Source: a virus
Length of the DNA stretch: 40,338 bases
Strand: one strand, 5' to 3'
Virus genome (UHGV): UHGV-0319604
In this document: positions 5,592 to 39,872 of the stretch, one piece after another
Layout of the letters: the number at the start of each line of letters is the position of its first letter
How positions within the stretch are numbered: the first letter of the stretch is position 1
Program-made: the position numbers and the translations under genes
The notes under the pieces: model-generated
The model's database searches: none
Seen by the model: the letters and a program-made list of their open reading frames with translations, nothing else
Told to the model about the DNA's origin: nothing

Positions 5592-6083
5592 TTACTTCTG
5601 CGGGGTGTTGGCGTACTTCAGAAAGAAATCATAAAGCTGCTTATACCGCATTTCGAACGCCAGTAGCATGTTCTTGGCTTCGACGCTTGGGAACTGCCTA
5701 TACACTCGAAGCAGTCGCTTTTCGTCTTCACTTAAATCTCTGAATTCCGCATCGCTGTCAATGTCAGGATCTGTCGGCGGGAAGCCCGAAAACTCAGTTT
5801 CCGGAAGCTTGATGGGTACACTCTCGCCTTCGCCATAATCAAGCCATGCCGCTTGGACATTTAGCCAGTCAGCTATCTTTTGCAGTTTCTCATCGCGTGG
5901 CTTAGCCGTGCCCAGCGTATAACGACGAGCCATTTCGTATGTGACATCGCAAGCCTGGCTTAAATCCTTTACGGAACGGCGCTGTCTGCGCATTTCTTCG
6001 GTCAGCCGGTTAGCGAAATCCTGATGTTTATTCGCTTTTTCTACCATAGGTAGAAGAGTAAGGCACGGCGCGTTCATAGTCAT
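5592..6083 (-). CDS. Prophage repressor (CI-like; HTH N-terminal domain, no S24 LexA-like peptidase domain; RacR-like)
   Basis: 163-aa ORF; N-terminal HTH-type segment (VKDLSQACDVTYEMARRYTLGTAKP); divergent from a cro-like gene with shared operator region; C-terminal ~80 aa shows no Ser/Lys peptidase motifs. Confidence 0.7.
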   Translation of the reverse strand: MTMNAPCLTLLPMVEKANKHQDFANRLTEEMRRQRRSVKDLSQACDVTYEMARRYTLGTAKPRDEKLQKIADWLNVQAAWLDYGEGESVPIKLPETEFSGFPPTDPDIDSDAEFRDLSEDEKRLLRVYRQFPSVEAKNMLLAFEMRYKQLYDFFLKYANTPQK

Positions 6084-6092
6084 TTCTATTTT

Positions 6093-6126
6093 TCGTAGTT
6101 GTATTTTCTACTTTATGTAGTATATT
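6093..6126 (+). promoter_or_regulatory. Rightward early promoter (PR-like) with operator palindrome CTACTTTATGTAG
   Basis: TTGTAT (6099-6104), 16-nt spacer, TATATT (6121-6126); palindrome CTAC-N5-GTAG at 6108-6120 in the spacer; located in the 72-bp gap between divergent repressor and cro-like genes. Confidence 0.4.
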
Positions 6127-6155
6127 GCAGTCATCGACTCATTCAGGAGAACACG

Positions 6156-6425
6156 ATGACTACTTCATACAAGAACATAACGGAAAAGGCGGTGAGGTCG
6201 ATTGGTTCGGTTTCGGCCGTCGCCCGCAAATTCAACTTTAAGTCCTCACAGTCAGTAGCAAACTGGATTATCCGAAACCGAGTTCCAAGTGAGCGAGTGA
6301 TAAAGCTCTGTGAATTTGGCGGTTGGACTGTCACCCCGCATGAGTTACGTCCGGATTTGCATCCAACCCCTACCAGCGGAATTCCTGTTCAGGATATCCC
6401 ACGTGCGCAGAGGGAGTCTGAGTGA
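6156..6425 (+). CDS. Cro-like DNA-binding protein (YdaS family)
   Basis: Start ATG 6156 with SD CAGGAGA; small HTH protein (SVSAVARKFNFKSSQSVANWI) ending ...TPHELRPDLHP, resembling YdaS-type Cro proteins; divergent from repressor. Confidence 0.6.
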   Translation: MTTSYKNITEKAVRSIGSVSAVARKFNFKSSQSVANWIIRNRVPSERVIKLCEFGGWTVTPHELRPDLHPTPTSGIPVQDIPRAQRESE

Positions 6426-6874
6426 TGGAAATCAAAAAACTGGCATGTGAGCTGGAGTCCTGGGCGCAGGAAAAGGGCTGGAAGACGGTGACGCAGCTGA
6501 TAACCCCGCATCACTTTGGTGATCTGCTTCAGTCACTGGATGACGTTTCGGATCCGGACGAGTACGCGCGGCGGCTGCACAACAACAAGCAGATTATTCA
6601 GCGTGCGTTCCGCAACGATACACCTAACTACCTGAAACAGGCTGAAGCTCTGAGCTATGCCATCCGTACCGCGATTGATAACGAACTGGCGCAGAAGGAC
6701 TGCATGCACTACCGGGCGGCCAGGGTTAACAAAGAGTGTATTGAAGCCACCAATGCTGTCTTCACAGGCAAGCCGCAACCGGTAATCCGACGCGAGACTC
6801 TGGAAGCGATCGATGCGCTGGCGCAGATGGCTGGCGTGAAAGTCCAAATTATGCACTGCCATCGCGCAGCTTAA
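6425..6874 (+). CDS. YdaT-like regulatory protein (CII position)
   Basis: ORF immediately after the cro-like gene (start overlaps its stop, TGATGG); size and position match ydaS-ydaT pairs of Rac-like prophages. Family assignment from memory. Confidence 0.4.
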   Translation: MEIKKLACELESWAQEKGWKTVTQLITPHHFGDLLQSLDDVSDPDEYARRLHNNKQIIQRAFRNDTPNYLKQAEALSYAIRTAIDNELAQKDCMHYRAARVNKECIEATNAVFTGKPQPVIRRETLEAIDALAQMAGVKVQIMHCHRAA

Positions 6875-6890
6875 CGGTCTGGAGGCAACT

Positions 6891-7154
6891 ATGCGTACTT
6901 CTCAGGAATTAGCGAGCGCACTGGCAGAGCGCATGAAAAACGCGATGAAGACCCGACCCGCTCAGGAGCCAGTGGATCGCCGCGGTGAAATCATTCCAGG
7001 GAAGCAATACCGCGACGAACGCGGGCGCATGGTTACAGTTTTGCGTGCATCCCAGCTCCGCGTGTCATATCGCCGGGAGGGGTACACCGGCGTCAGTGAA
7101 ACAGGGCGCCGTGAGTTTGAAATGAAGTTCACCGAGGTGAAAAGTGAGTCTTGA
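6891..7154 (+). CDS. Hypothetical small protein (87 aa)
   Basis: ORF in track with ATG start; between ydaT-like and replication genes. Confidence 0.4.
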   Translation: MRTSQELASALAERMKNAMKTRPAQEPVDRRGEIIPGKQYRDERGRMVTVLRASQLRVSYRREGYTGVSETGRREFEMKFTEVKSES

Positions 7155-8178
7155 TGCCATGCGCTGGGCCAAAAAGGTCAAAACAGGGCGATCGTCTGCA
7201 AAGTCGGTCCTTACCTGGCTGGCTGATATGTGCGGAGCCGACTTAACGACATACCCGTCAATTGCCGCTCTGTCAGAAGCTACTGAGCTAGACAAAAAAA
7301 CAGTTCAGGCAAGCCTGCAGCATCTGATCGCTATGGGATTTATCCAGGACACTGGAGAACGTCGCGGGCGCACAAAACAAATCCCTGTCTACAAATTAAT
7401 CGGGGTGGAGGAAAGCATTGCAGATTCTGAACACACCCAAAAACGGGAACATTACCAAAAACGGGGTCGTTCAAAGGGAACCGAAAACGGGAGTGTTTCA
7501 GAAAACGAACCCAAAAACGGTGCTGTTAAAAAGGGTGAAACGATCCCGTTTTTTCCGTCAAACGATCCCAAAAACGGGATACGGAATCCCCCAGAGGAAT
7601 CTAAAGATCTAAACCCCACACATAGCGCGCGAGGGGAACTGGTTGGATCAGTCAGTGAAAGACCGGTTCCGGAATACCCTGGTCAGCCAGGCACGTTTTT
7701 CCCCGCCTCTCAGTTGCTCGGGAAATTTCCGATGAGCAAGGAGTGGAAACCATCTGCGGACTTTCGCAAACAGGCGAACCTCTGGGGGCGCCCTGTGCCT
7801 GAGAAACTAACTCCCGATGATTTACGCGCTGCACATGCCTGCTTTGTCGATTACTGGATCTCTGAGGGCAAGGCATTCAACCAGACGCAGTGGGAGCAAA
7901 AATTTGCTCTCCACCTGCAGAACACAAAGCCAACAAAACCGCGAGGTAATTCTCATGCAGGACTGGACCCAAACTCCACAGCAAACGCTGCTGTACAACG
8001 AGCGCGCGCAGCACGTGCAGAACAATTACGAGCTCGAGGAGAAGGCGTGGAAATTCTGGGAACTCATGCTGGAAATTTACTCCACCCGCTGGGAGACCAA
8101 AAACGGATCGGCTCCGTCGGACCTATGGATTGCGCAGATTGGGAGTTTGACCAGCGCCCAGACGACGAGCGTCTGTAA
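7144..8178 (+). CDS. Replication initiation protein (O-like: N-terminal HTH domain plus DnaT-like C-terminal region)
   Basis: N-terminal MRWAKKVKTGRSSAKSVLTWLADMCGADLTTYPSIAALSEATELDKKTVQASLQHLIAMGFI is a typical phage replication-protein HTH; followed by a low-complexity linker and a conserved C-terminal region. Last ~75 codons overlap the next gene out of frame. Confidence 0.6.
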   Translation: MSLDAMRWAKKVKTGRSSAKSVLTWLADMCGADLTTYPSIAALSEATELDKKTVQASLQHLIAMGFIQDTGERRGRTKQIPVYKLIGVEESIADSEHTQKREHYQKRGRSKGTENGSVSENEPKNGAVKKGETIPFFPSNDPKNGIRNPPEESKDLNPTHSARGELVGSVSERPVPEYPGQPGTFFPASQLLGKFPMSKEWKPSADFRKQANLWGRPVPEKLTPDDLRAAHACFVDYWISEGKAFNQTQWEQKFALHLQNTKPTKPRGNSHAGLDPNSTANAAVQRARAARAEQLRARGEGVEILGTHAGNLLHPLGDQKRIGSVGPMDCADWEFDQRPDDERL

Positions 8179-9525: not shown

Positions 9526-9970
9526 CGAGCGCACCAGGATTATCAATCGGATTATCGATCTGGTGAAAGAACATGGGCGCATCACTACGAAAGATGTCGT
9601 TGCGATGTTCGATCTGCATCGCACAACCGCTGAGAAATATCTCCGCACCGCGATAGAGCAGGGAGGCCTTGTTCGCCACGGTCGCTGCGGTACGTTCGGC
9701 GATGTTGGTCCTGTTGGCCCACTAAAGCATCTGTCGAAAGAAGCTCTTGAAGCAGCAGCCGAACCTAATGATCTCAGTGAGTGGGCCGATATGCAGTTCT
9801 TGTTATGGGATGCCCAGCGCCGCGCTGGTATCAGCGATGGTGAAATCACTGCAGCGATGGAAGAAAAGCTAAAGGTGAATATGGCGCGACAGTGGCCTGA
9901 ACCGAAGGACGGAGAACCACGTCTGCATATCAAGACAGCCCCGTTGCAGGAGGTGAAACAGTGTACCTGA
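9503..9970 (+). CDS. Hypothetical protein with N-terminal winged-helix-like domain
   Basis: Start ATG 9503 after GGGAGGG; TRIINRIIDLVKEHGRITTKDVVAMFDLHRTTAEKYLRTAIEQGGLV. Confidence 0.4.
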   Translation: MPRPKTHDERTRIINRIIDLVKEHGRITTKDVVAMFDLHRTTAEKYLRTAIEQGGLVRHGRCGTFGDVGPVGPLKHLSKEALEAAAEPNDLSEWADMQFLLWDAQRRAGISDGEITAAMEEKLKVNMARQWPEPKDGEPRLHIKTAPLQEVKQCT

Positions 9971-10050
9971 TGGAGCTGTTATCAGGCGCAGTCTGGCTGG
10001 TAGTTTTAATCGTGCTGGTGGTGCTGGCTCTGAGAAGAATTGATTACTGA
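9970..10050 (+). CDS. Candidate small hydrophobic peptide (26 aa, MELLSGAVWLVVLIVLVVLALRRIDY)
   Basis: ATG overlaps upstream stop (TGATG); single predicted TM helix then RR; followed 12 nt later by a strong terminator. Below the 60-aa track cutoff. Confidence 0.3.
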   Translation: MELLSGAVWLVVLIVLVVLALRRIDY

Positions 10051-10061
10051 TTAAGCACTTA

Positions 10062-10081
10062 CCCGCTTCGGCGGGTTTTTT
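10062..10081 (+). terminator. Rho-independent terminator ending the early-right operon
   Basis: cccgc-ttcg-gcggg hairpin followed by tttttt. Confidence 0.6.
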
Positions 10082-10146
10082 GCCCTAGGCCAAAGCCCTT
10101 TAACATTTCGTGCTGTTAAACCGTTGATCAATTCCATGTGTGAGTG

Positions 10147-10166
10147 TACTGTATAAATATACAGTA
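10147..10166. promoter_or_regulatory. LexA box (SOS operator), perfect palindrome TACTGTATAAATATACAGTA
   Basis: Matches the CTGT-N8-ACAG LexA consensus on both half-sites; sits 20 nt upstream of the ATG at 10187 and overlaps a TATAAAT -10-like element. Confidence 0.8.
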
Positions 10167-10186
10167 ACATTGTGGAGGCGATCACC

Positions 10187-10510
10187 ATGGGTTTTCCATC
10201 ACCAGCAGCAGACTACGCAGAGCAAACCCTCTCAATTACCAGTATCTGCGGTTATGACAGCAACTGCCGCACCATCGAAACCTCTTCCGGTTACGCAATC
10301 ATCAACATTGCCAGAAAGGCGAAGATTGGCGACACGGTTCTCATTTCCTTTTGTGGAAAGCTGGACTTCGCCTCCGTTCAGGGGAAAGCACTCATCACGC
10401 CTGACGGAGAGGCGATTGAAGGTGATGCGCTGGACGATGCGACCGTTCTTGGAGTTGTTACATACCTTCTGAACAGCGTTACCGACACAGACGACAGGCC
10501 AGTGATATAG
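10187..10510 (+). CDS. UmuD'-like S24-fold protein lacking the catalytic Ser/Lys dyad (pseudo-peptidase), LexA-regulated
   Basis: SD GGAGG 7 nt upstream; begins MGFPSPAADYAEQ, matching the UmuD segment immediately after its cleavage site (CGFPSPAADYVEQ); C-terminal GDTVLISFCGKLDFA...ATVLGVVTYLL aligns with UmuD GDIVIAAVDGEFTVK...LDVFGVVIHVV, but the GDSM Ser position reads GYAI and the Lys position is Ala/Ser. UmuD sequence is from memory. Confidence 0.6.
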   Translation: MGFPSPAADYAEQTLSITSICGYDSNCRTIETSSGYAIINIARKAKIGDTVLISFCGKLDFASVQGKALITPDGEAIEGDALDDATVLGVVTYLLNSVTDTDDRPVI

Positions 10511-10556
10511 CAGAGCGTGCATGATTCCTGTGCATAAAGAGCCGATCGGTTACACA

Positions 10557-10578
10557 GATCAATTACGGTTAATTGATC
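10557..10578. repeat. Perfect inverted repeat GATCAATT-acggtt-AATTGATC (two GATC sites)
   Basis: Seen directly; 8-bp arms, 6-nt spacer, in the noncoding gap downstream of the UmuD'-like gene. Confidence 0.5.
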
Positions 10579-10695
10579 TATCTAACCTATTAGACGTTCA
10601 TGGCGATGGCTGCTTTAGTTACGTTCAGCGCGCAGGGAGAAAAGGGCCGCCCCCCGATTAGTCGGGGATGACTGAATTGAATAGGATTTTTCGTT

Positions 10696-10863
10696 ATGAA
10701 TGAGCAAGAATTAATCGCTGCCGTTCGCCCTGCTGGACGTTATGAGGTAGTGAGCCGGGAGGATGGCTCCTTTGTTGTAATCCCTGTACCTGCCGAAGCA
10801 ATACTCATCACCAGGGAAGCACTCAGACAATGCCTTGAGCGCTTCCGCAACCCTGACAACTGA
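10696..10863 (+). CDS. Possible small ORF (55 aa), no clear RBS
   Basis: ATG..TGA ORF MNEQELIAAVRPAGRYEVVSREDGSFVVIPVPAEAILITREALRQCLERFRNPDN; coding status uncertain. Confidence 0.25.
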   Translation: MNEQELIAAVRPAGRYEVVSREDGSFVVIPVPAEAILITREALRQCLERFRNPDN

Positions 10864-11002
10864 TTTATAATAATCAAGCTGGCCTGAACAACCAGCGCCT
10901 GTCGCACCATCACCGGAGAAAAGTGATGGCGCAAAGAACTACCCAGAATTATTCACACCGCCCATTCGCGCGCGGTGTTTCTGCTTATGCTGGTGATCCA
11001 GC

Positions 11003-11299
11003 ATGAAGAAAGCAGATAGCCTCCATCTTTCACGTGTGGCCGCGCTGGGCTGCATCGTGTGCAGAAACCAGAACTTGGGCGAGACGCCTGCGGAAATTCA
11101 CCATATCCGAACCGGTCAGGGCACCAGTCAACGTGCTGACCATCGGAAATCAATTCCCCTGTGCCATATGCACCACCGCAACGGCGGTTACGGTGTCGCG
11201 ATTCATGCTGGCCGCCGCGCCTGGGAAATGAAGTACGGCACTGAAGCTGAACTGCTGGTGCAGGTTCTCTATTTGCTGGGAGAGCCTGCCGATGAGTAA
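11003..11299 (+). CDS. Small HNH-motif zinc-binding protein (Ref/DUF1364-like)
   Basis: CIVCRNQ ... EIHHIR ... CHMHH pattern (CxxC, HH, CHxHH) typical of small phage HNH-like proteins. Confidence 0.45.
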   Translation: MKKADSLHLSRVAALGCIVCRNQNLGETPAEIHHIRTGQGTSQRADHRKSIPLCHMHHRNGGYGVAIHAGRRAWEMKYGTEAELLVQVLYLLGEPADE

Positions 11300-12953
11300 G
11301 CCAGTCAGTTACGGCTCAGTGTGCAGCGGCATCGAGGCCGCCAGCGTGGCATGGCATTGTTTGGGCTGGCAGCCAGCATGGTTCGCTGAGATAGAAAAAT
11401 TCCCCTCTGCTGTTCTGGCGTACCGCTGGCCGGACGTAAGCAATCTGGGTGATATGACGCAAATCCCCGCGGCAATCCGTGCCGGAAAAATCGAAGCGCC
11501 TGATGTGCTGGTGGGGGGCACCCCTTGCCAGGCGTTCAGCGTTGCGGGTTTACGTAATGGGCTGGCTGACGAACGCGGCCAGTTAACTTTGGCTTTTGTG
11601 GAGCTGGTTAATGCTATCGATGAACTACGCAGAGAACAGGGAAAAACTCCCGTCATCGTCGTCTGGGAAAACGTCCCCGGCGTATTCAGCAGCAAAGATA
11701 ACGCTTTCGGATGTTTTCTTGCAGGGCTTGCCGGCGAAAGCTGCGCGCTGGAATCACCAGGGAAGCGATGGTCAAACGCTGGTTATGTGCTGGGACCAGA
11801 AAGAGCTATTGCCTGGCGAGTGCTCGACGCTCAATTTTTCGGAGTGGCCCAACGACGCAGACGTGTGTTTGTTGTCGCAACAGCTCGAGGGGATATCGAT
11901 CCCGCAAAAATTCTTTTTGAGTCCGAAGGCCTGCGCCGGAATTCTCCGCCGCGCAGAAGTTCGCGGGAAGAAGTTGCCGGAACTTTTAAGGCTCGCGCTA
12001 ATTCAGGTGGCTGGGGACAAGATGTAGAACTTGCCGCAGGTGGCTATATGCAAGTTGTTGTTGGTAGTCACTGGGATAATCCATTGAACCCACACCCAAC
12101 ACTAAATCAGTCATTCAACACTGGTGGTATCGGTGCGAGTAACCAGGAATTATTCAGTCAGCGCGGAAGCGGGATTGTCGGAACGTATGTAAACACTAGC
12201 CGCACACTTTTGGGAAAACCTAACTGCAGCATGGCTGAAGACTTGGAAACTTTTGCCATACATGGAACCCAGGATCCGGATACTCTTCACGATATGGCAC
12301 ATGCCCTGGGGCGCAATCACGGGCAGAAAAACGCGGTTATTGCATTCAGTTCGAAAGATAGCGGCCATGATGCAGCCAGCGACATATCACCAACGCTTCG
12401 CGCAGGGAATAGCAGCAACAGCAATCAGAACGCTGGCGCACCGCCAGCAATAGCTTACGGCATTCCAGGAAACTGGATAGGCCGCGCTCCGCAAAACGGA
12501 GGAAATGCAGTAGAGCCTATGCATGATGTGTCTCCATGTCTGACCGTTGCGGATTGTCACGGCGTTGCATATGCCTTTAAGGCGGGGCAGGGTGCAAAAG
12601 CTAACGGCATAGGATACGCAGCCGAACAAGCCCCAACACTGACAAGCGCAAATAGCGGGAGCAATCAGGCTCCTGCAATCATGCAAAACATGGCCGTTCG
12701 CCGTCTGACTCCTGTCGAGTGCGAACGTCTGCAGGGCTTCCCAGATAACCACACCCTGATCCCCACACAAAAACGTAAGCAGCTCACCGCTGAAGAATAC
12801 GCCTACCTGCGCCACCACCGGCCAGAACTGACTGCAGAACAGGCTTACCGCCTGGCCGCTGATGGACCGCGCTATAAAGCGATCGGAAACTCAATGGCCG
12901 TACCGGTTATGCGGTGGATTGGTTCCCGCATACAGGAGGCGCTGCGTGCATAA
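11292..12953 (+). CDS. DNA (cytosine-5)-methyltransferase, orphan (no adjacent restriction gene), with long low-complexity target-recognition region
   Basis: C5-MTase motifs: GSVCSGIEAAS (motif I-like), GGTPCQAFSVAG (PCQ motif IV), ENV (motif VI), RRRVFVVA (motif VIII), RLTPVECERLQGFPDNH and AIGNSMAVPV (motifs IX/X). Confidence 0.85.
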   Translation: MSKPVSYGSVCSGIEAASVAWHCLGWQPAWFAEIEKFPSAVLAYRWPDVSNLGDMTQIPAAIRAGKIEAPDVLVGGTPCQAFSVAGLRNGLADERGQLTLAFVELVNAIDELRREQGKTPVIVVWENVPGVFSSKDNAFGCFLAGLAGESCALESPGKRWSNAGYVLGPERAIAWRVLDAQFFGVAQRRRRVFVVATARGDIDPAKILFESEGLRRNSPPRRSSREEVAGTFKARANSGGWGQDVELAAGGYMQVVVGSHWDNPLNPHPTLNQSFNTGGIGASNQELFSQRGSGIVGTYVNTSRTLLGKPNCSMAEDLETFAIHGTQDPDTLHDMAHALGRNHGQKNAVIAFSSKDSGHDAASDISPTLRAGNSSNSNQNAGAPPAIAYGIPGNWIGRAPQNGGNAVEPMHDVSPCLTVADCHGVAYAFKAGQGAKANGIGYAAEQAPTLTSANSGSNQAPAIMQNMAVRRLTPVECERLQGFPDNHTLIPTQKRKQLTAEEYAYLRHHRPELTAEQAYRLAADGPRYKAIGNSMAVPVMRWIGSRIQEALRA

Positions 12954-19394: not shown

Positions 19395-21124
19395 TGGCTA
19401 CATATCCGAACGTCAATGCGGCGAACCAGTATGCGCGGGACGTCGTGAACGGGAAGATACTGGCCTGCCGGTTAACCATTCTTGCCTGTCAGCGACATCT
19501 GGACGACCTGGAACGCGCCAGAGATCCACGCTGGCCTTACCGCTTCGATAAAAATAAAGCAGAACGTTTCCTTCGCTTCTCCCAGAAAATGCCGCACACA
19601 TCCGGTGAGTGGGCTCGCCGGAAGCTGCGCATAGAGTTTGAGCCCTGGCAGAAATTTGCGCTTGGCGTGCCGTTTGGCTGGGTGCGTAAGGACAATGGTT
19701 TTCGTCGTTTCACTGAGATTTACATCGAGGTACCACGTAAAAACGGCAAATCTGCGATCGCGGCGGCCGTTGGTAACTATATGTTCTGTGCCGATGGCGA
19801 GTACGCAGCGGAAGTTTACTGTGGCGCCACGACGGAAAAACAGGCCTGGAAAGTCTTTGCACCTGCTCTGGCAATGGTGAAAAAGCTTCCGGCCCTGCGT
19901 CAGAAGTTCAGCATCAAACCCTGGGCGAAGAAAATGACGCGCCCGGATGGCTCCCTGTTCGCGCCTGTTATCGGCGACCCCGGCGACGGTGATTCACCCT
20001 CCTGCGCCATCATCGACGAGTACCACGAGCACGATACTGACGCGCTCTATACCACGATGACCACCGGGATGGGGGCAAGGGAGCAGCCCATCACGCTGAT
20101 CATCACCACGGCGGGTTTCGATATCGCCTCACCGTGTTATGAGAAGCGCACCCAGGTGGTCGAGATACTGGAGCGCATCAGAGAAGGTGGTGAAAACGAG
20201 GCAATTTTCGGGATCATCTATACCCTGGATGATGACGATGACTGGACACAGCCGGAAGCACTGATAAAAGCCAACCCGAATTACAACATTTCGGTGAAAG
20301 AGGGGTTCCTCAAGGCCAAGCAGCTGCTGGCGATGTCCACACCCAGCCAGACCAACAAAATACTCACCAAGCATTTCAATAAATGGGTGAGCTCTAAAGC
20401 GGCATTCTACAACCTTCAGAAGTGGATGGCTGCGGCAGATAAGACGCTCAAACTGTCCGATTTTGCGGGAGAAGAGTGTTATCTCGGCATAGACCTGGCA
20501 TCAAAACTTGACCTTAACGCAGTGGTGCCGGTCTTCCGCCGGGAAATCGCCGGGGTAAGCCATTATTACTGCGTTTCGCCTCTCTTCTGGGTGCCGGAAG
20601 ATACCGTCTATGCCACGGATCCGGCATTGAAAACGATCGCCGACCGTTACCAGTCCTTTGTTAATCAGGGCGTGCTGGTTCCGTCGGACGGGGCCGAGGT
20701 GGATTACCGCCTTATTTTCGAAGCGATCCTGAAATTACGTGAGACCGTGAAAATAGCTGCGAGCCCGATTGACCCTTATGGCGCCACCGGCCTTTCTCAT
20801 ATGTTGCAGGATGAAGGGCTTGAGCCCGTCACCATCACCCAGAACTACACCAACATGAGCGACCCGATGCGTGAAATTGAAGCTGCGATCGCTGCTGGCC
20901 GCTTCCATCATGACGGTAATCCGCTGATGACCTGGTGCATTTCTAACGTTGTCGGCAAGTATTTACCGGGTAGTGATGATGTTGTGCGTCCGGTGAAAGA
21001 GGGTGCTGGCAACAAAATCGATGGCGCAGTTGGCCTGATGATGGGTGTTGGCCGTGCGATGCTGAATGAGCCGAAAGACTTCCTTTCTAACCTCGATCCT
21101 GATGAGGAACTGTTATTCCTGTGA
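19394..21124 (+). CDS. Terminase large subunit
   Basis: 576-aa ORF; Walker A-like VPRKNGKS, acidic IIDEYHEH segment, C-terminal nuclease-like region; followed by the portal gene. Confidence 0.9.
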   Translation: MATYPNVNAANQYARDVVNGKILACRLTILACQRHLDDLERARDPRWPYRFDKNKAERFLRFSQKMPHTSGEWARRKLRIEFEPWQKFALGVPFGWVRKDNGFRRFTEIYIEVPRKNGKSAIAAAVGNYMFCADGEYAAEVYCGATTEKQAWKVFAPALAMVKKLPALRQKFSIKPWAKKMTRPDGSLFAPVIGDPGDGDSPSCAIIDEYHEHDTDALYTTMTTGMGAREQPITLIITTAGFDIASPCYEKRTQVVEILERIREGGENEAIFGIIYTLDDDDDWTQPEALIKANPNYNISVKEGFLKAKQLLAMSTPSQTNKILTKHFNKWVSSKAAFYNLQKWMAAADKTLKLSDFAGEECYLGIDLASKLDLNAVVPVFRREIAGVSHYYCVSPLFWVPEDTVYATDPALKTIADRYQSFVNQGVLVPSDGAEVDYRLIFEAILKLRETVKIAASPIDPYGATGLSHMLQDEGLEPVTITQNYTNMSDPMREIEAAIAAGRFHHDGNPLMTWCISNVVGKYLPGSDDVVRPVKEGAGNKIDGAVGLMMGVGRAMLNEPKDFLSNLDPDEELLFL

Positions 21125-21271
21125 AATCACTAATTATCGATGTGGCCGGGCTGGCAGGCTTCGGCGCGCTGGTGGGAGGTGTTTACCTCAAATTTGGCGC
21201 TGCGGTCGCCCTTATGGCTGGTGGCAGTGGCCTGCTGTTGTGGGCATTACTGGCGGCCAGGAGAACAAAAA

Positions 21272-22489
21272 ATGCTGATTGATGCCATTTTCAGAAGCAA
21301 CTCTCTGGAAAACCCAGCTGTACCGATCACTGTCGAAGCTGCCGAAAATGACGGGATTTTTAACGGTGACGTGATCGTAAATCCCCGGACGGCAATGAAA
21401 CTGGCGGCGGTGTATGCCTGTATCTACGTTATTTCGTCCAACGTTGCGCAGATGCCCCTGCACGTCATGCGGCGCACCGGGAAAAAGGTTGAAACCGCCC
21501 GTGATCACCCCGTTTTTTACCTGGTTCACGATGAGCCAAACGCCTGGCAGACCAGCTATAAATGGCGTGAGCTGAAGCAGCGACACATTCTGGGCTGGGG
21601 TAACGGCTACACACGTGTTAACCGCCATCGGCGAACGGGTGAAGTCACTGGACTGGAAGCCTGTATGCCGTGGGAAACAACGCTGCTGAACACCGGCGGG
21701 CGCTACACCTACGGTGTTTATAACGAAGAGGGGTCATTCGCCATCAATCCTGACGACATGATCCACGTCAGGGCGCTGGGCAACGATCAGAAAATGGGGC
21801 TCAGTCCGGTACTGCAGCACGCTGAAACCATCGGAATGGGCATGAGCGGGCAGAAGTATACGGAAAGTTTTTTCAGCGGTAATGCCAGGCCAGCGGGCAT
21901 CGTTTCAGTAAAAGGGGAGTTGAATGACAACTCCTGGAAAAGACTGAAAGAGATGTGGCAAAAAGCTACAGCGATGCTGCGCAGCCAGGAAAACAGGACG
22001 ATGCTGCTCCCGGCTGATCTGGACTATAAAGCGCTGACTGTCTCGCCGGTCGATGCCCAGCTCATCGACATGATGAAGCTCAACCGCTCGATGATCGCCG
22101 GGATATTTAACGTACCAGCGCACATGATAAACGACCTCGAAAAAGCCACCTTCTCCAACATCTCCGAACAGGCGATTCAGTTTGTCCGCTACACGATGAT
22201 GCCGTGGGTGACGAACTGGGAGCAGGAGCTTAATCGTCGGTTATTTACCCGCGCCGAACGGGCTGCAGGGTATTACGTGCGCTTTAACCTGGCAGGTCTG
22301 CTGCGCGGTACCGCCAAAGAGCGCGCTGAGTTCTATCACTACGCCATCACCGATGGCTGGATGAGCCGCAACGAGGCGCGCGCCTTTGAGGATATGAACC
22401 CGAAAGACGGCCTTGATGAAATGCTCGTCAGCGTCAACGCCTCCCAGCCAGTCAAAACCAAAACCCAGGAGAACACTCCAGATGAGTGA
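21272..22489 (+). CDS. Portal protein (HK97 family)
   Basis: ATG after SD AGGAG; ~405 aa; position between terminase and prohead protease. Confidence 0.85.
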   Translation: MLIDAIFRSNSLENPAVPITVEAAENDGIFNGDVIVNPRTAMKLAAVYACIYVISSNVAQMPLHVMRRTGKKVETARDHPVFYLVHDEPNAWQTSYKWRELKQRHILGWGNGYTRVNRHRRTGEVTGLEACMPWETTLLNTGGRYTYGVYNEEGSFAINPDDMIHVRALGNDQKMGLSPVLQHAETIGMGMSGQKYTESFFSGNARPAGIVSVKGELNDNSWKRLKEMWQKATAMLRSQENRTMLLPADLDYKALTVSPVDAQLIDMMKLNRSMIAGIFNVPAHMINDLEKATFSNISEQAIQFVRYTMMPWVTNWEQELNRRLFTRAERAAGYYVRFNLAGLLRGTAKERAEFYHYAITDGWMSRNEARAFEDMNPKDGLDEMLVSVNASQPVKTKTQENTPDE

Positions 22490-26346: not shown

Positions 26347-27844
26347 TTACATCCCGGCAGATAACCGGGTACCGCTGTTTTATGCAGAAATGGACAACAG
26401 CGCCGCAAACACCGCGCAGGATAGCGGCCCATCCCTGCTGATTGGCATGGCATTGTCCGACTCTGACATGCCTGTGAACCAGCTGGTCATCATGCCGTCC
26501 AAAGACCTGGCAAAAAAAATGGCAGGGCGCGGAAGCCAGCTGGCGCGCATGGTGGAAGCATACCGCCGCGTTGACCCGTTCGGTGAACTGTGGGTTATCG
26601 CTGTGCCTGACAACGGGCAGGCGGCAACCGGTACGATCACTTTCTCCGGCACCGCGACAGACGCCGGTTCGGTAAACCTTTATATCGGTACCACCCGCGT
26701 ACAGGTAACAGTCGCGGCAAATGACACGGGAGCAGATACCGCCCAGGCTTTGCTGGCTGCGATTAACGGCAATCCTGATTTGCCTGTCACGGCGCAATAT
26801 AAAGTGACGTCCGCCGGGCCTGACCAGGGCACGCTGGAGCTTACGGCCGTGAATGGTGGTGTGAGCGGAAACAGCATCCCGTTATCCCTCAATTATTACG
26901 GCACGGCCAGCGGGGAAGAAGTTCCAGCAGGGTTAAGTATTCAGATCGGCAAAATGAGTGGCGGGGCGGGCGACCCGGATTTAACCGGAACGATCGCCGC
27001 GATGGGGGATGAGCCGTTCGATTATATTGGCCTGCCATTCAGCGACAGCGCCTCGCTGCAGCTGATGGCGACGGAGATGAACGACAGCTCCGGTCGCTGG
27101 AGCTATATTCGCCAGCTATACGGTCATGTGTACACCGCCAGAACTGGCACACTGTCTGAGCTGGTGGCCTACGGTGATACGTTCAATTATCAGCACATCA
27201 CCATCGCGGGCTATGAACCAGATGTACAAACCGGAGTTGATGAGCTGGTGGCGTATCGTCTGGCGCGTCAGGCCGTATTCTTACGTAACGACCCGGCACG
27301 ACCGACGCAAACCGGAGAGCTGACAGGTGCACTCCCGGCACCCACCGGCAAGCGTTTTACCATCACAGAGCAGCAATCATTACTGATGCATGGTATTGCC
27401 ACGGCGTACACCGAATCCGGTATTTTGCGCATTCAGCGCGACATCACGACCTATAAAACCAACGCCTACGGTGTGGCAGATAACAGCTATCTGGACAGCG
27501 AAACGCTGCATACCAGCGCTTACGTTCTGCGTCGCCTGAAATCGGTGATCACCAGTAAATACGGCCGCCACAAACTGGCGAACGATGGTACCCGCTTTGG
27601 CCCAGGCCAGGCGATTGTTACGCCGTCTGTTATTCGTGGTGAACTGGGGGCGGTATACCGCCAGCTCGAGCGTGAGGGGATCGTGGAAAACTTTGATCTC
27701 TTCCAGCAATACCTGATTGTCGAGCGCAACGCATCAGACCCGAATCGTCTGGATGTCCTGTTCCCGCCTGATTACGTCAACCAGCTGCGTGTGTTTGCTG
27801 TGCTTAACCAGTTCCGTCTGCAATACAACGAGGAGGCCGCATAA
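26330..27844 (+). CDS. Tail sheath protein (Mu-like contractile tail)
   Basis: 504-aa ORF directly followed by a ~118-aa tube gene, chaperone and tape measure; size and order typical of Mu-type sheath. Confidence 0.75.
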   Translation: MTVSFNYIPADNRVPLFYAEMDNSAANTAQDSGPSLLIGMALSDSDMPVNQLVIMPSKDLAKKMAGRGSQLARMVEAYRRVDPFGELWVIAVPDNGQAATGTITFSGTATDAGSVNLYIGTTRVQVTVAANDTGADTAQALLAAINGNPDLPVTAQYKVTSAGPDQGTLELTAVNGGVSGNSIPLSLNYYGTASGEEVPAGLSIQIGKMSGGAGDPDLTGTIAAMGDEPFDYIGLPFSDSASLQLMATEMNDSSGRWSYIRQLYGHVYTARTGTLSELVAYGDTFNYQHITIAGYEPDVQTGVDELVAYRLARQAVFLRNDPARPTQTGELTGALPAPTGKRFTITEQQSLLMHGIATAYTESGILRIQRDITTYKTNAYGVADNSYLDSETLHTSAYVLRRLKSVITSKYGRHKLANDGTRFGPGQAIVTPSVIRGELGAVYRQLEREGIVENFDLFQQYLIVERNASDPNRLDVLFPPDYVNQLRVFAVLNQFRLQYNEEAA

Positions 27845-28200
27845 TGGCAAAGATTGCGGGTACCACTTATTTCAAAATCGACGGGCAGCAGCTGTCCATC
27901 ACTGGCGGCATTGAAGTGCCGATGAACACCCGTGTTCGTGATGACGTGATCGGCCTTGCCGGTGATGTCGATTACAAGGAAACGCACCGGGCACCCTATA
28001 CGAAGGTCACAGCAAAGGTGCCCAAAAACTTCCCGGTGAACAAAATCACCACCGCCGACACCATGACCATCACCTCTGAACTGGCGAACGGTCAGGTTTA
28101 TGTCCTTTCAAACGCCTGGCTGCATGGTGAGGCAAACCATAATCCCGAAGAGGGCACGGTGGATCTGGAATTCCACGGTGAAGAAGGATTTTATCAATGA
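27844..28200 (+). CDS. Tail tube protein
   Basis: 118-aa ORF overlapping the sheath stop (TAATG); between sheath and chaperone. Confidence 0.65.
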   Translation: MAKIAGTTYFKIDGQQLSITGGIEVPMNTRVRDDVIGLAGDVDYKETHRAPYTKVTAKVPKNFPVNKITTADTMTITSELANGQVYVLSNAWLHGEANHNPEEGTVDLEFHGEEGFYQ

Positions 28201-38081: not shown

Positions 38082-39194
38082 TTACCTTTTGGAACAATCC
38101 TCGTTACTATTCAAGCATTCATCAATCAAATCAAGTATAGGACTTACATCTGCATCCATAACGCGACGCTCTTTTAGTCTCACCTGTTTAGCTAATTTAT
38201 AGTTTGGCCCCCACACATCCGCATTATCTGCTGGGGCGACGAGTATTTTGAATGGGTAAACACAGATTAGCCTTTTCTGAAATGCTCTGGATACATGTAC
38301 AAAAGAAGTGTCTGGGGAAATAACTAGAGCGCTTTCTTTTATTATTTGTGCTGCGGAAAAGAATGACGGCGTAGTATTTTTAGTTACATTTTCTGAATCG
38401 GGGATAGATGCAATTTTATGCTGCTCCCCGAGGATGATCATGTGATACGAATTGGCGTGTTTAGCCATATGATTTGTTATGGTTTCAATTTGCGAGGCTG
38501 AAAAAAAGCGCTCGCTGACGCTACCATAAGGGATAAATGACACTATTATTTTATTAGTGGTCTTTTTAATAAATTCCTGTGCCGCATCAGCATCTTTTTT
38601 AGGAATGATAACAGAGTAATCATAATCTGTTACACTGATACCTAACCCTTCAAGCAGGTCGATGTACCGTGTGCTAATATGAGCCAAGGGATTTTTTATT
38701 TTAATGACTTCATCGTATATTCGATATTTGTTTGTAAATCCAATGGTCTTATAAGGCTTGGAGAGTCTAATTAAATTAAATGTATCAACATTAGAGTGAG
38801 TTACCTCATGCGAATCAATGAAAGTAAATGGATTGATTGCATTGAGCGCAGCAAGGAGCGGCTTTTTATTATTTGGTTCATATAAATATAACCCGTGTAA
38901 ATTTTTCCACTCTTTAAATAAAAAATAAGTTCTTTTATCTGCTATTACAGACACCCGGTAATTGTTTCTCACCAGTGTATCAATTACCCCTCCAATAACA
39001 ACAGCATCCCCAATACCTTTAGCGATGAAAGGTATTACCAAATGGTTTGTTCCCGAATCAAGCCTGTCTTTATTGCGGCGGGCGCGAGTAGCAATCTCAC
39101 TTAATAAACTCAATTTGAGCTTTAATTTTGCTCTTTTGAGATAATAATTTTTAGATCTGTTTGCTTTCCTAAGCCATTTGATCACTGTTTTCAC
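38082..39194 (-). CDS. Glycosyltransferase family 9-like (heptosyltransferase-like) protein, AT-rich moron
   Basis: 370-aa ORF; IAKGIGDAVVIGGVIDTL (GT9 N-terminal signature) and ALVISPDTSFVHVSRAFQKRLICVY (GT9 C-terminal segment); clearly lower GC than the phage backbone; opposite strand to tail genes. Confidence 0.55.
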   Translation of the reverse strand: MKTVIKWLRKANRSKNYYLKRAKLKLKLSLLSEIATRARRNKDRLDSGTNHLVIPFIAKGIGDAVVIGGVIDTLVRNNYRVSVIADKRTYFLFKEWKNLHGLYLYEPNNKKPLLAALNAINPFTFIDSHEVTHSNVDTFNLIRLSKPYKTIGFTNKYRIYDEVIKIKNPLAHISTRYIDLLEGLGISVTDYDYSVIIPKKDADAAQEFIKKTTNKIIVSFIPYGSVSERFFSASQIETITNHMAKHANSYHMIILGEQHKIASIPDSENVTKNTTPSFFSAAQIIKESALVISPDTSFVHVSRAFQKRLICVYPFKILVAPADNADVWGPNYKLAKQVRLKERRVMDADVSPILDLIDECLNSNEDCSKR

Positions 39195-39272
39195 CTTATT
39201 CTTTATATAATAATTTATCTTTATGCTAACTGAGCAGCCTCACTATATGCAATAGCGGGCTGCCCTGTGTTG

Positions 39273-39872
39273 TTAATGTTGCAGCCAGCGATCACGCGCT
39301 TGCCGTGCTATGGCGATCATTTTCTGTATCTCTCCGAGAGTGAATTTTTCTGCTTCATCACACGGCATGACCACATAGCCGGAACGGATCACATGTTCTA
39401 GGCACGAATCGGGGTTCATAACCACTTCGCCAGGCATAAGAGGGTGACAGGCCACGGGCAGGCCGTTTTCGAAATAGGTGATTACTGCGTAATTACCCTG
39501 GCGTGATGCTGCTGGGGCTCTCTTTTGCAGTTCGGCTTCCATCTGGTTAAAAGCTTTAATGTAATTGATCTTCCACTGGAGTGCTTTTTTGCCGGTGAAT
39601 CCCATGACGATTAGAGAGAAAGCATCACGGGTCATTTCGAATGCAGGTGCAGAGATTCTAGCTCCGCCGTTAGGATTTTCCCGCTCATAGTGCGTCTCCT
39701 TAAAATTCAGGAGACGCCATTCTGAGTCACACTCTGATATAACAGTTCTGATTTTTTCCATGACATTGTCATGCCGTTTTTGGAAGTAGTTGGCAACAGC
39801 AACAGATGTGGTGATCGCGCGGTTATCGCACACTTTCACTTCGGGGAGCAAGGGAGAGATTGAAGTAGTCAT
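39273..39872 (-). CDS. Rha-family phage regulatory protein
   Basis: N-terminal VCDNRAITTSVAVANYFQKRHDNVMEKIR matches the Rha-domain signature (...T.S..VA..F.KRHDNV...I). Confidence 0.6.
   Translation of the reverse strand: MTTSISPLLPEVKVCDNRAITTSVAVANYFQKRHDNVMEKIRTVISECDSEWRLLNFKETHYERENPNGGARISAPAFEMTRDAFSLIVMGFTGKKALQWKINYIKAFNQMEAELQKRAPAASRQGNYAVITYFENGLPVACHPLMPGEVVMNPDSCLEHVIRSGYVVMPCDEAEKFTLGEIQKMIAIARQARDRWLQH

What the first reader, a model, noticed from the sequence alone, without database searches (positions are those of the whole stretch)
10147..10510. Perfect LexA box driving a UmuD'-like protein that has lost both catalytic residues
A textbook SOS operator (TACTGTATAAATATACAGTA) sits 20 nt upstream of a 107-aa ORF. 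The ORF begins exactly where RecA-cleaved UmuD' begins (GFPSPAADY.EQ) and keeps the C-terminal S24 beta-core, but the Ser of the GDSM motif and the Lys of the VKK motif are both substituted and about 12 residues around the active site are missing. So it is a ready-made, non-cleavable, non-catalytic UmuD' mimic expressed only on DNA damage. The prophage repressor in this window lacks an autocleaving peptidase domain, so this protein is a candidate SOS-coupled antirepressor or induction factor. Alternatively it could modulate host UmuD/UmuC/RecA.
Basis: partly seen in the sequence, partly recalled or inferred. Interest (0 to 1): 0.8.

Follow-up and report, generated by a model that had tools for sequence, protein, structure and literature searches.

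The report
SOS-controlled, catalytically dead phage UmuD′ look-alike
A prophage gene switched on by DNA damage encodes a shortened, enzymatically dead relative of phage P1 HumD (a ready-made UmuD′), and comparison with related prophages indicates it is an SOS accessory protein, while the small gene just downstream is the better candidate for the switch that wakes the prophage.

Summary
A near-consensus LexA box (10147-10166) sits 20 nt upstream of a 107-aa ORF (10187-10510). The ORF starts at the UmuD′ N-terminus, is predicted to have the S24 β-core, and lacks both catalytic residues: a 12-residue deletion removes Ser60 and Lys97 aligns to Ala. The family is real. It has about 294 sequence clusters in Enterobacteriaceae prophages, dN/dS about 0.1, and a LexA box conserved in roughly 90% of loci.

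It is an offshoot of phage HumD, which is a pre-truncated UmuD′. It shares the N-terminal arm and a HumD-specific C-terminal tail (DDxPVI). It also replaces HumD in the same dinI/LexA/orf79 cassette and upstream of phd-doc.

The antirepressor reading is not supported for this ORF. Identical copies occur with different immunity types, and the gene also occurs in phages with cleavable S24 repressors. In contrast, the next small ORF (10696-10863) co-varies without exception (25 loci) with the class of the repressor's C-terminal domain. In a second lineage a comparable small ORF is present only when the repressor is non-cleavable.

Best reading: this is the first gene of a Gifsy-like SOS operon, and the protein acts on the host UmuD/UmuC/RecA* machinery. 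Whether it stimulates or blocks that machinery is unknown. It is a new variant of a known kind, of moderate interest.

The parts
10061..10083 (+). Intrinsic-terminator-like hairpin with a T-run. It insulates the SOS unit from the upstream early-right genes.
   Evidence: Terminator scan. The Gifsy SOS loci have the same layout, a terminator followed by a LexA box (PMC3121763).
10124..10152 (+). Putative sigma-70 promoter: TTGATC (-35), 17-nt spacer, TACTGT (-10) overlapping the LexA box.
   Evidence: The hexamers and their spacing are conserved in about 40 divergent loci whose flanks differ. The site is below the scan tool's threshold, so it is inferred.
10147..10166 (.). LexA operator (SOS box), TACTGTATAAATATACAGTA.
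   Evidence: One mismatch to the consensus, 0.00 expected by chance, and the only such site in the window. CTGT-N8-ACAG is kept in about 66 of 74 homologous loci while the spacer varies.
10187..10510 (+). 107-aa HumD-lineage UmuD′ look-alike without the Ser-Lys dyad (phrog_3469).
   Evidence: dN/dS is about 0.10.
10548..10587 (+). Conserved imperfect palindrome or hairpin in the spacer between the two genes. A recombination breakpoint between modules lies just 3′ of it.
   Evidence: It is conserved mainly by sequence, with only 2 covarying pairs. Its function is unknown.
10696..10863 (+). 55-aa ORF (phrog_34610, allele X). It is probably co-transcribed and is the better candidate for the SOS-coupled antirepressor.
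   Evidence: It co-varies perfectly with the repressor's C-terminal domain class in 25 loci. No terminator was detected between it and the upstream gene.
11003..11299 (+). Ref-like RecA-dependent nuclease (PF16786), the next gene in the same direction.
   Evidence: Pfam 50.3 bits against a cut-off of 26.9. It is conserved downstream in the relatives.
5592..6083 (-). Prophage repressor, 163 aa, HTH only. Its C-terminal LLxVYRxFPxVExxNML motif is related to that of Gifsy GtgR.

Best explanation
The ORF is the first gene of a LexA-repressed prophage SOS operon laid out like the Gifsy dinI-antirepressor operons. It encodes a member of a distinct, strongly conserved offshoot of the phage HumD family. 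HumD proteins are UmuD′ homologs made already truncated.

The protein is never cleaved. It has lost everything needed for RecA*-stimulated self-cleavage: the Ser60 loop, Lys97, the pocket that binds the RecA L2 loop, and the D91/E93 acidic patch. It keeps the invariant UmuD′ N-terminal arm (GFPSPAxDY), the S24 β-core and the HumD-specific acidic C-terminal tail. It has also gained a new invariant acidic motif, DGEAIEGDALDD.

When DNA damage inactivates LexA, the protein is made at once. It most likely acts on the host SOS mutagenesis and translesion machinery (UmuD, UmuC, RecA*) through the retained arm and tail. It could act as a dyad-independent UmuD′ surrogate that bypasses the slow UmuD-cleavage step. 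Alternatively it could be a dead partner that heterodimerises with host UmuD and prevents its intermolecular cleavage.

It is not the factor that inactivates the phage repressor. That role most likely belongs to the next gene (10696-10863).

Shown: the anatomy, the homology, conservation of the LexA box, purifying selection, and non-co-variation with immunity. Inferred: co-transcription, the host target, and the direction of the effect.
For: Homology and lineage:
- Family profile versus P1 HumD: probability 98.3%, E 1.8e-14, end to end including the tail VFGVITHVIN...DDCPVI. This is better than versus UmuD (97.1%, 5.7e-11).
- The tail is absent from E. coli UmuD.
- PHROG 3469 'UmuD-like' matches at E 1e-45.
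- The predicted fold matches UmuD′ best.

Positional equivalence with HumD:
- HK140 carries dinI<-LexA->orf79->HumD->attP. mEp390 and Flotzy carry the same cassette with this variant instead, and phiES15 carries orf79->variant->attP behind its only LexA box. orf79 is about 82-85% identical between HK140 and mEp390.
- In a Citrobacter plasmid the variant sits upstream of a PHD antitoxin gene and a second small ORF, the position humD holds upstream of phd-doc in P1.

SOS control is a family trait.

The protein is under selection: dN/dS about 0.10.

The losses map to residues used only for RecA*-mediated cleavage. Of the UmuD residues that contact RecA (Y52, L54, F94, D91, E93, F26, P29; PMC9926225), only F26 and P29 in the arm are kept.

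Neighbouring genes act on RecA or SOS:
- dinI is adjacent in many loci.
- A Ref-like RecA-dependent nuclease lies two genes downstream.

Not the antirepressor:
- Identical proteins occur with different immunities.
- The gene is present in phages with S24 repressors.
- The downstream ORF, not this one, co-varies with repressor class: 25 of 25 loci.
- L039 and L042 (short repressors) have an extra small ORF after this gene, while L048, L051 and L055 (S24 repressors) do not.
Against: - No experiment bears on this subfamily.
- No umuC lies near any locus, so a host partner has to be assumed.
- Identity to HumD and UmuD outside the arm and tail is only about 20-28%. The protein fails Pfam PF00717 and the NCBIfam HumD cut-off (30.5 bits against 120), so the UmuC-binding and dimer surfaces may not be retained.
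- HumD itself keeps Ser and Lys. Loss of the dyad together with a new invariant acidic motif therefore suggests a change of function rather than simple streamlining.
- In the window and in phiES15 this operon holds the only LexA box of a phage with a non-cleavable repressor, so a contribution to induction is not excluded.
- Antirepressors can act across immunities (PMC3121763). This weakens the argument from identical proteins with different immunities when taken alone.
Confidence: 0.6

Rival explanations
1. SOS-coupled antirepressor. The UmuD′ look-alike binds the non-cleavable HTH repressor and removes it from its operators, so that LexA cleavage leads to prophage induction.
For: - The window's repressor lacks an S24 domain and carries the Gifsy GtgR-type C-terminal motif.
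- The only LexA box in the window, and in UV-induced phiES15, drives this gene's operon.
- The layout of terminator, LexA box and small gene after the replication genes matches Gifsy.
- Antirepressors can act on heteroimmune repressors.
- A new, conserved acidic surface could serve as a binding face.
Against: - The gene is present in phages with cleavable S24 repressors.
- It is interchangeable with genuine HumD in the same cassette.
- It does not co-vary with repressor class, whereas the next ORF does, in 25 of 25 loci.
- In the L039/L042 versus L048/L051/L055 lineage, the extra small ORF, not this gene, tracks repressor type.
- Uetakevirus BUCT554 has a second LexA-controlled 86-aa gene with weak similarity to an anti-repressor family.
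- The ancestral UmuD′ arm is strictly conserved, which points to a host partner.
- There is no similarity to GftA.
Confidence: 0.1
2. RecA*, LexA or S24-repressor decoy. The dead S24 domain either docks in the RecA filament groove and competes with LexA, UmuD and CI, or forms mixed dimers with the S24 domains of LexA or CI. Either way it would tune the strength or duration of the SOS response, as DinI does, or affect the induction of co-resident prophages.
For: - The fold is that of RecA-groove binders.
- Arm residues F26 and P29, which touch RecA in the UmuD-RecA structure, are invariant.
- The gene recurs next to dinI, and it occupies the position dinI holds in Gifsy-type operons.
- A Ref-like RecA-dependent nuclease lies in the same gene string.
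- The protein has a strongly acidic conserved motif, and DinI and UmuD use acidic patches against the basic groove of RecA.
Against: - The UmuD residues that form the L2-F203 pocket (Y52, L54, F94) and the D91/E93 patch are not conserved.
- No direct test is possible with these tools.
- The HumD-specific tail points to a function shared with HumD, which is known to act as UmuD′ (annotation; otherwise from my own knowledge of McLenigan et al. 1999, not read here).
Confidence: 0.2
3. Decaying relic of humD with no function of its own, carried along in the SOS cassette.
For: It has lost the catalytic residues and 12 residues of the core. It has no Pfam match.
Against: - Median dN/dS is 0.10 over 146 pairs.
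- There are 14 invariant positions and a new invariant motif across about 50% sequence divergence.
- About 294 clusters have intact ORFs of constant length.
- The LexA box and promoter are conserved.
Confidence: 0.03

Closest known systems
Phage P1 HumD, N15 gp26 and HK140 gp28 (HumD family: NCBIfam NF051876, phrog_811)
   Same: - Made already truncated, starting at the residue equivalent to Gly25 of UmuD.
- LexA box upstream.
- Same N-terminal arm, S24 β-core and C-terminal tail (...IN...DDxPVI).
- Same genomic slots: the dinI/LexA/orf79 cassette next to attP, and upstream of phd-doc.
   Different: - HumD is 129 aa, passes Pfam Peptidase_S24 and keeps the Ser (DSH) and Lys (IKR).
- This protein is 107 aa, lacks the Ser loop (12-residue deletion) and has Ala for the Lys.
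- It scores 30.5 bits against the HumD cut-off of 120.
- It carries a family-specific invariant motif, ITxDGEAIEGDALDD.
Bacterial UmuD/UmuD′ (accessory subunit of DNA polymerase V; peptidase S24)
   Same: The N-terminal 13 residues are nearly identical to the start of UmuD′. The fold and the C-terminal β-strand (VFGVV/VLGVV) are shared. Both are under SOS control.
   Different: - There is no propeptide and no cleavage site, so no RecA*-dependent activation is needed.
- The dyad and the residues that contact RecA L2 are absent.
- It is not encoded next to umuC.
- It has an extra acidic tail.
LexA-controlled antirepressor operons of Gifsy-1/-2/-3 (dinI-gfoA/gftA-irsA), 186 Tum, PSP3/Fels-2 and N15 AntC
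   Same: - Operon logic: terminator, LexA box, an SOS-modulator gene, then a small immunity-matched protein, in a phage with a short GtgR-type repressor.
- L042 even keeps the irsA homolog.
- L034 and L039 keep dinI.
   Different: - The leading gene here is a HumD-type protein rather than DinI, or in addition to it.
- The candidate antirepressors (phrog_34610, phrog_22673) show no detectable similarity to GftA.
DinI
   Same: A small SOS-induced protein placed at the head of phage antirepressor operons. It is frequently adjacent to this gene.
   Different: The fold is unrelated. DinI is known to bind RecA filaments, whereas no binding data exist for this protein.

Membership tests
Peptidase S24 (LexA/UmuD/CI autoproteases) | S24 β-barrel core fold | tested here: met
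   The AlphaFold2 model (pLDDT 72.6) matches UmuD′, LexA C-terminal domain and CI C-terminal domain best, with TM 0.5-0.65. hhalign against UmuD gives 97% probability.
Peptidase S24 (LexA/UmuD/CI autoproteases) | Ser nucleophile (the Ser of the G-D/M-S-M motif) | tested here: not met
   A 12-residue deletion removes UmuD 59-70, including Ser60. No Ser is conserved at either alternative alignment position.
Peptidase S24 (LexA/UmuD/CI autoproteases) | Lys general base | tested here: not met
   Lys97 aligns to Ala62. No Lys is invariant in 32 members.
Peptidase S24 (LexA/UmuD/CI autoproteases) | Passes the Pfam PF00717 gathering threshold | tested here: not met
   No Pfam hit even at E<=10. P1 HumD passes with 36.1 bits.
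HumD family (pre-truncated phage UmuD′) | Translation starts at the UmuD′ N-terminus (M-GFPSPAxDY) | tested here: met
HumD family (pre-truncated phage UmuD′) | LexA operator upstream | tested here: met
   P1 and HK140 have the equivalent site. Binding itself was not tested.
HumD family (pre-truncated phage UmuD′) | HumD-type C-terminal extension (IN..., acidic run, PV[IM]) | tested here: met
   Alignment A2 and hhalign.
HumD family (pre-truncated phage UmuD′) | Reaches the NCBIfam NF051876 equivalog cut-off | tested here: not met
   30.5 bits against a cut-off of 120. Only residues 1-21 match.
HumD family (pre-truncated phage UmuD′) | Substitutes for UmuD′ in UmuC-dependent mutagenesis | not testable with these tools
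   Needs complementation of a umuD mutant.
LexA-controlled phage antirepressors (GfoA/GftA, Tum, AntC type) | Under direct LexA control, in a phage whose repressor cannot self-cleave | tested here: met
   True for the window. However, the gene also occurs in phages with S24 repressors.
LexA-controlled phage antirepressors (GfoA/GftA, Tum, AntC type) | Matched to, and co-varying with, the repressor class it inactivates | tested here: not met
   Identical proteins occur with three or four immunity types. The neighbouring ORF co-varies in 25 of 25 loci instead.
LexA-controlled phage antirepressors (GfoA/GftA, Tum, AntC type) | Sequence similarity to a characterised antirepressor | tested here: not met
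   No tblastn or BLASTP similarity to Gifsy-2 GftA. Tum and AntC were not compared.
LexA-controlled phage antirepressors (GfoA/GftA, Tum, AntC type) | Binds the repressor and relieves repression | not testable with these tools
   Needs pull-down, two-hybrid or reporter assays.

The most novel reading that the evidence does not exclude
The protein is an S24 pseudo-enzyme that has changed function. It would be a dead UmuD′ mimic that uses the conserved arm and a new acidic face to form dead-end complexes with host S24 proteins or with RecA*. Examples are mixed dimers with UmuD that cannot be cleaved in trans, or mixed dimers with LexA or CI-type repressors. A damaged cell's SOS timing and mutagenesis, and possibly the induction of rival prophages, would then be set by the phage. 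This would be the opposite effect to that of the dyad-bearing HumD.
Probability: 0.25. Interest if true: 0.75.

Novelty: new variant of a known kind. Interest (0 to 1): 0.5.

Why it matters
Temperate phages of Enterobacter, Klebsiella, E. coli, Cronobacter and Citrobacter commonly carry this gene under SOS control, so it is expressed whenever DNA-damaging antibiotics are used. If it feeds or blocks polymerase V it would alter damage-induced mutagenesis, and so the evolution of resistance, in lysogens.

The comparison also separates two functions that are easily conflated in such loci. One is a general SOS accessory gene (HumD-type, like dinI). The other is a small, exchangeable, immunity-class-matched gene that probably triggers induction. 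This yields concrete candidate antirepressors (phrog_34610 and phrog_22673) for a widespread class of non-cleavable GtgR-type repressors.

The contrast between HumD, which keeps the dyad, and this dyad-less variant in the same cassette is a natural experiment on what the Ser-Lys site does in a protein that is never cleaved.

Tried and rejected
- Pfam, NCBIfam and PDB sequence searches gave only the N-terminal arm match.
- A megablast search against complete E. coli genomes found nothing.
- The literature searches I ran (terms) found no characterisation of this subfamily.
- A look for umuC next to the gene found none in 80 loci.
- The window has no homologs of GftA, DinI, orf79 or the BUCT554 86-aa protein.
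- Allele Y versus GftA by BLASTP showed no similarity.
- Rfam on 9900-11100 gave only a sub-threshold isrK hit on the terminator hairpin.
- The intergenic fold is not unusually stable (z = -1.28), and the hairpin shows little covariation.
- I first reasoned that this gene is the only one shared by all the LexA units in phages with non-cleavable repressors. That argument fell when BUCT554 showed a second LexA-controlled gene and when the downstream ORFs were examined.
- A linker-fused complex prediction was considered and not run.
- The relic hypothesis was rejected on dN/dS.

Full report
**1. The observation**

Sequence features:
- The window carries TACTGTATAAATATACAGTA at 10147-10166. This is one mismatch from the 20-nt LexA consensus.
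- It is the only such site in 40 kb, and shuffled sequence gives 0.00 matches.
- A terminator-like hairpin with a T-run lies just upstream at 10061-10076.
- Twenty nucleotides after the box, behind a GGAGG ribosome-binding site, ORF 10187-10510 encodes 107 aa beginning MGFPSPAADYAEQ.

Homology and fold:
- phmmer against PDB sequences and hhalign of a 32-member family profile both align Gly2 with Gly25 of E. coli UmuD, the first residue of RecA-processed UmuD′.
- Pfam finds nothing.
- NCBIfam HumD and UmuD models match only the first 21-40 residues, far below their cut-offs.
- PHROG 3469 ('UmuD-like protein', 106 positions) matches end to end at E 1e-45.
- An AlphaFold2 model built on the family alignment (pLDDT 72.6) matches UmuD/UmuD′ structures best (8gmt_A, 1umu, 1ay9; TM 0.56-0.65). 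LexA and lambda CI C-terminal domains follow.

Catalytic residues:
- hhalign against UmuD (probability 97.1%, E 5.7e-11) places a 12-residue deletion over UmuD 59-70, which contains Ser60.
- The same alignment puts Ala62 opposite Lys97.
- No Lys, and no Ser outside the arm, is invariant in the family.

**2. The family**

- About 294 clusters at 90% identity exist, all in Enterobacteriaceae: Enterobacter, Klebsiella, E. coli, Cronobacter, Citrobacter, Salmonella, Raoultella and Atlantibacter. None has a Pfam domain.
- 63 deposited phage genomes and 51 plasmid records carry the gene.
- Median dN/dS over 146 pairs is 0.10, so the protein is functional and not a relic.
- Fourteen positions are invariant. 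They include FPSPA-D in the arm and a family-specific acidic motif, ITxDGEAIEGDALDD.

**3. SOS control is a family trait**

Across 80 IMG/VR loci, roughly 66 of 74 have CTGT-N8-ACAG in one of two places:
- Class A: about 40 nt upstream of the start codon. The window belongs to this class.
- Class B: about 280 nt upstream, ahead of a 79-aa ORF (phrog_3893) whose stop codon overlaps the start codon of this gene.

The spacer of the box varies while the arms are fixed. A TTGAC/TTGATC hexamer lies exactly 17 nt from TACTGT in otherwise divergent sequence.

**4. Lineage**

Alignment with P1 HumD and HK140 gp28 shows three shared features:
- the N-terminal arm;
- the β-core;
- a C-terminal extension, ...VFGVITHVINDARSGEFDDCPVI in HumD against ...VLGVVTYLLNSVTDTDDRPVI here. 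E. coli UmuD lacks this extension.

The family profile matches HumD end to end at probability 98.3% and E 1.8e-14, better than it matches UmuD.

HumD keeps the Ser (DSH) and the Lys (IKR) and passes Pfam Peptidase_S24. This family does neither.

The two are also positional equivalents:
- HK140 has dinI<-LexA box->orf79->HumD->attP. mEp390 and Flotzy have the same cassette with the variant, and phiES15 has orf79->variant->attP behind its only LexA box.
- In a Citrobacter plasmid the variant sits upstream of a PHD antitoxin gene and a second small ORF, where humD sits upstream of phd-doc in P1.

**5. Is it the antirepressor?**

Evidence in favour. The window's repressor is a 163-aa HTH protein without an S24 domain. 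Its C-terminal motif resembles that of Gifsy-2 GtgR. GtgR belongs to a class of repressors shown to be inactivated by LexA-controlled antirepressors encoded after the replication genes, behind a terminator (PMC3121763).

Four comparative results go against it.

(a) The gene also occurs in phages with cleavable S24 repressors: mEp390 (Pfam S24), L048, L051 and L055 (GDSM present), and Flotzy, whose repressor is annotated CI-like. HK140 carries HumD in the same slot, and its repressor is annotated as similar to HK620 cI.

(b) Identical proteins occur with different immunities. The window (163-aa repressor) and L007 (139-aa repressor) encode 100% identical proteins. P0017 sits with both the 131-aa and the 139-aa repressors.

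(c) The small ORF immediately downstream has two unrelated alleles.
- Allele X (55 aa, phrog_34610; window 10696-10863) is always paired with repressors whose C-terminal domain reads LLxVYRxxPxVExxNMLxAFxMRxKQLxxFF. These are 13 loci with the 163-aa type, plus a fourth immunity type of 109 aa in L092.
- Allele Y (72 aa, phrog_22673) is always paired with the 139-aa and 131-aa repressors, which share a different C-terminal domain.
- There are no exceptions in 25 informative loci.
- The homology breakpoint between the window and L007 lies in the spacer about 85 nt after the stop codon of the UmuD′-like gene. The small ORF is therefore a separate, exchangeable module.
- It is matched to the repressor's C-terminal domain rather than to its DNA-binding domain. 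That is what an antirepressor active across heteroimmune phages should look like.

(d) A second lineage shares the same upstream neighbour.
- L039 and L042 have short GtgR-like repressors. They carry LexA->UmuD′-like->(dinI)->81-86-aa ORF, followed in L042 by an irsA homolog. This is the Gifsy operon layout.
- L048, L051 and L055 have S24 repressors. There the transcription unit runs from the UmuD′-like gene straight into ninB, with no small ORF.

In addition, Uetakevirus BUCT554 has a second LexA box ahead of an 86-aa protein weakly similar to an anti-repressor family.

The UmuD′-like gene therefore occupies the place that dinI holds in Gifsy operons. The induction trigger is most likely the next gene.

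**6. What it most likely does**

Lost features. The UmuD-RecA filament structure (PMC9926225) identifies the residues used for RecA*-stimulated cleavage:
- the Y52/L54/F94 pocket that receives RecA F203;
- the D91/E93 patch;
- the Ser-Lys dyad.

All of these are lost here. Of the residues that contact RecA, only F26 and P29 of the arm are kept.

Retained features. The protein keeps what a never-cleaved UmuD′ homolog shares with HumD: the arm, the core and the tail. HumD is annotated as complementing UmuD′ (the original study is cited from my own knowledge and was not read here).

The strict conservation of an arm inherited from UmuD, across phages with unrelated repressors, argues for a conserved host partner. 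My best reading is an SOS-induced protein that engages UmuD, UmuC or RecA*. Two mechanisms are possible:
- It supplies UmuD′ function without waiting for UmuD cleavage.
- It acts as a dead partner that blocks the intermolecular cleavage of UmuD.

HumD keeps the dyad and this family has gained a new invariant acidic motif, so a change of function is a live possibility.

The genomic company fits a RecA/SOS-directed role:
- dinI is adjacent in many loci.
- A Ref-like RecA-dependent nuclease lies at 11003-11299 (PF16786, 50.3 bits).

No umuC is nearby in any locus.

**7. Novelty and score**

The family is already labelled 'UmuD-like' in PHROGs and in some phage annotations. mEp390's annotators noted the similarity to HumD. 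Existence and rough kinship are therefore known.

I found no description of three things in the literature searches I ran:
- the loss of the dyad and of the RecA-interaction residues;
- its status as a conserved, selected offshoot of HumD;
- its role as the leading gene of Gifsy-type antirepressor operons.

I rate it a new variant of a known kind, with interest 0.5. The by-product is arguably as useful: candidate antirepressors matched to the C-terminal domain class of GtgR-type repressors.

Noticed in passing
window 10696-10863 (+): A 55-aa ORF (phrog_34610) just downstream of the finding. It has two unrelated alleles, 55 aa and 72 aa (phrog_22673), and these co-vary without exception in 25 loci with the class of the repressor's C-terminal domain. 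It is a strong candidate for the SOS-coupled antirepressor.
   Followed up: yes
window 11003-11299 (+): A 98-aa protein that matches Pfam PF16786, RecA-dependent nuclease (P1 Ref-like), at 50.3 bits. It is conserved downstream of the SOS unit in the relatives. A HumD-like and a Ref-like gene are therefore strung together here.
   Followed up: partly
window 10548-10587: A conserved imperfect palindrome of about 40 nt (GGTTACACAGATCAATTA-CGGT-TAATTGATCTATCTAACC) between the two genes. It is conserved mainly by sequence, with only 2 covarying pairs. It could be an RNA hairpin or a protein-binding site. The recombination breakpoint between modules lies just 3′ of it. A second GC-rich hairpin (about 10647-10662) precedes the small ORF.
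   Followed up: partly
window 5592-6083 (-); L007, L001, L092, L039, L042, L084 (phiES15 gp11), L088 (Gifsy-2 GtgR): Heteroimmune short repressors have unrelated N-terminal HTH domains but share one of two C-terminal domain classes built around an LLxL[FY]xxLPxxEK-type motif. Gifsy GtgR carries this motif too. It is probably the surface that antirepressors recognise.
   Followed up: partly
L081 (mEp390) 20396-21308; L087/L089 (HK140); L091 (Flotzy); L084 (phiES15) 39118-39726: A recurrent cassette next to attP: dinI <- one palindromic LexA box -> 79-aa ORF (phrog_3893, function unknown) -> HumD or the variant. The stop codon of the 79-aa ORF overlaps the next start codon (TAATG/TGATG). The function of the 79-aa protein is unknown, and mEp390's annotation misses it.
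   Followed up: partly
L090 (BUCT554) 27600-27899: Uetakevirus phages have a second LexA box (TACTGTACATATATACAGTG) ahead of an 86-aa protein. That protein is phrog_450 and is weakly similar to the C-terminus of anti-repressor family phrog_1760 (E 2.7e-6). It is a likely separate antirepressor for their double-HTH repressor, which has no S24 domain.
   Followed up: partly
C-terminus of the ORF (window about 10470-10507) and of HumD: The conserved acidic run ending in P-V-[IM] (DDRPVI, DDIPVM, DELPII) resembles the C-terminal tip of SSB (DDDIPF). It may be a short linear motif for a host partner. This is a resemblance recalled from memory and was not tested.
   Followed up: no
window 10041-10081 (+): A sub-threshold Rfam hit to isrK, a Gifsy-1 Hfq-binding sRNA (17.5 bits against a gathering score of 50; E 0.45). 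It falls on the terminator hairpin upstream of the LexA box and is probably just terminator similarity.
   Followed up: no
L085 (Citrobacter freundii 85.6-kb plasmid NZ_CP114569.1) 6001-6929: The variant lies directly upstream of a gene annotated antitoxin PHD and a second small ORF, mirroring the P1 order humD-phd-doc. Many 85-98-kb 'non-mobilizable' Citrobacter and Klebsiella plasmids carry the gene and may be phage-plasmids.
   Followed up: partly
L095, L097, L100, L101 about 6070-7815; L094, L097 and L100 about 9800-12650: Related Enterobacter prophages carry AAA_15/AAA_21 ATPase plus RloB-like gene pairs, and DNA methylase plus AAA ATPase pairs, inserted just upstream or downstream of the SOS unit. 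These look like defence-system cargo at a hotspot.
   Followed up: no
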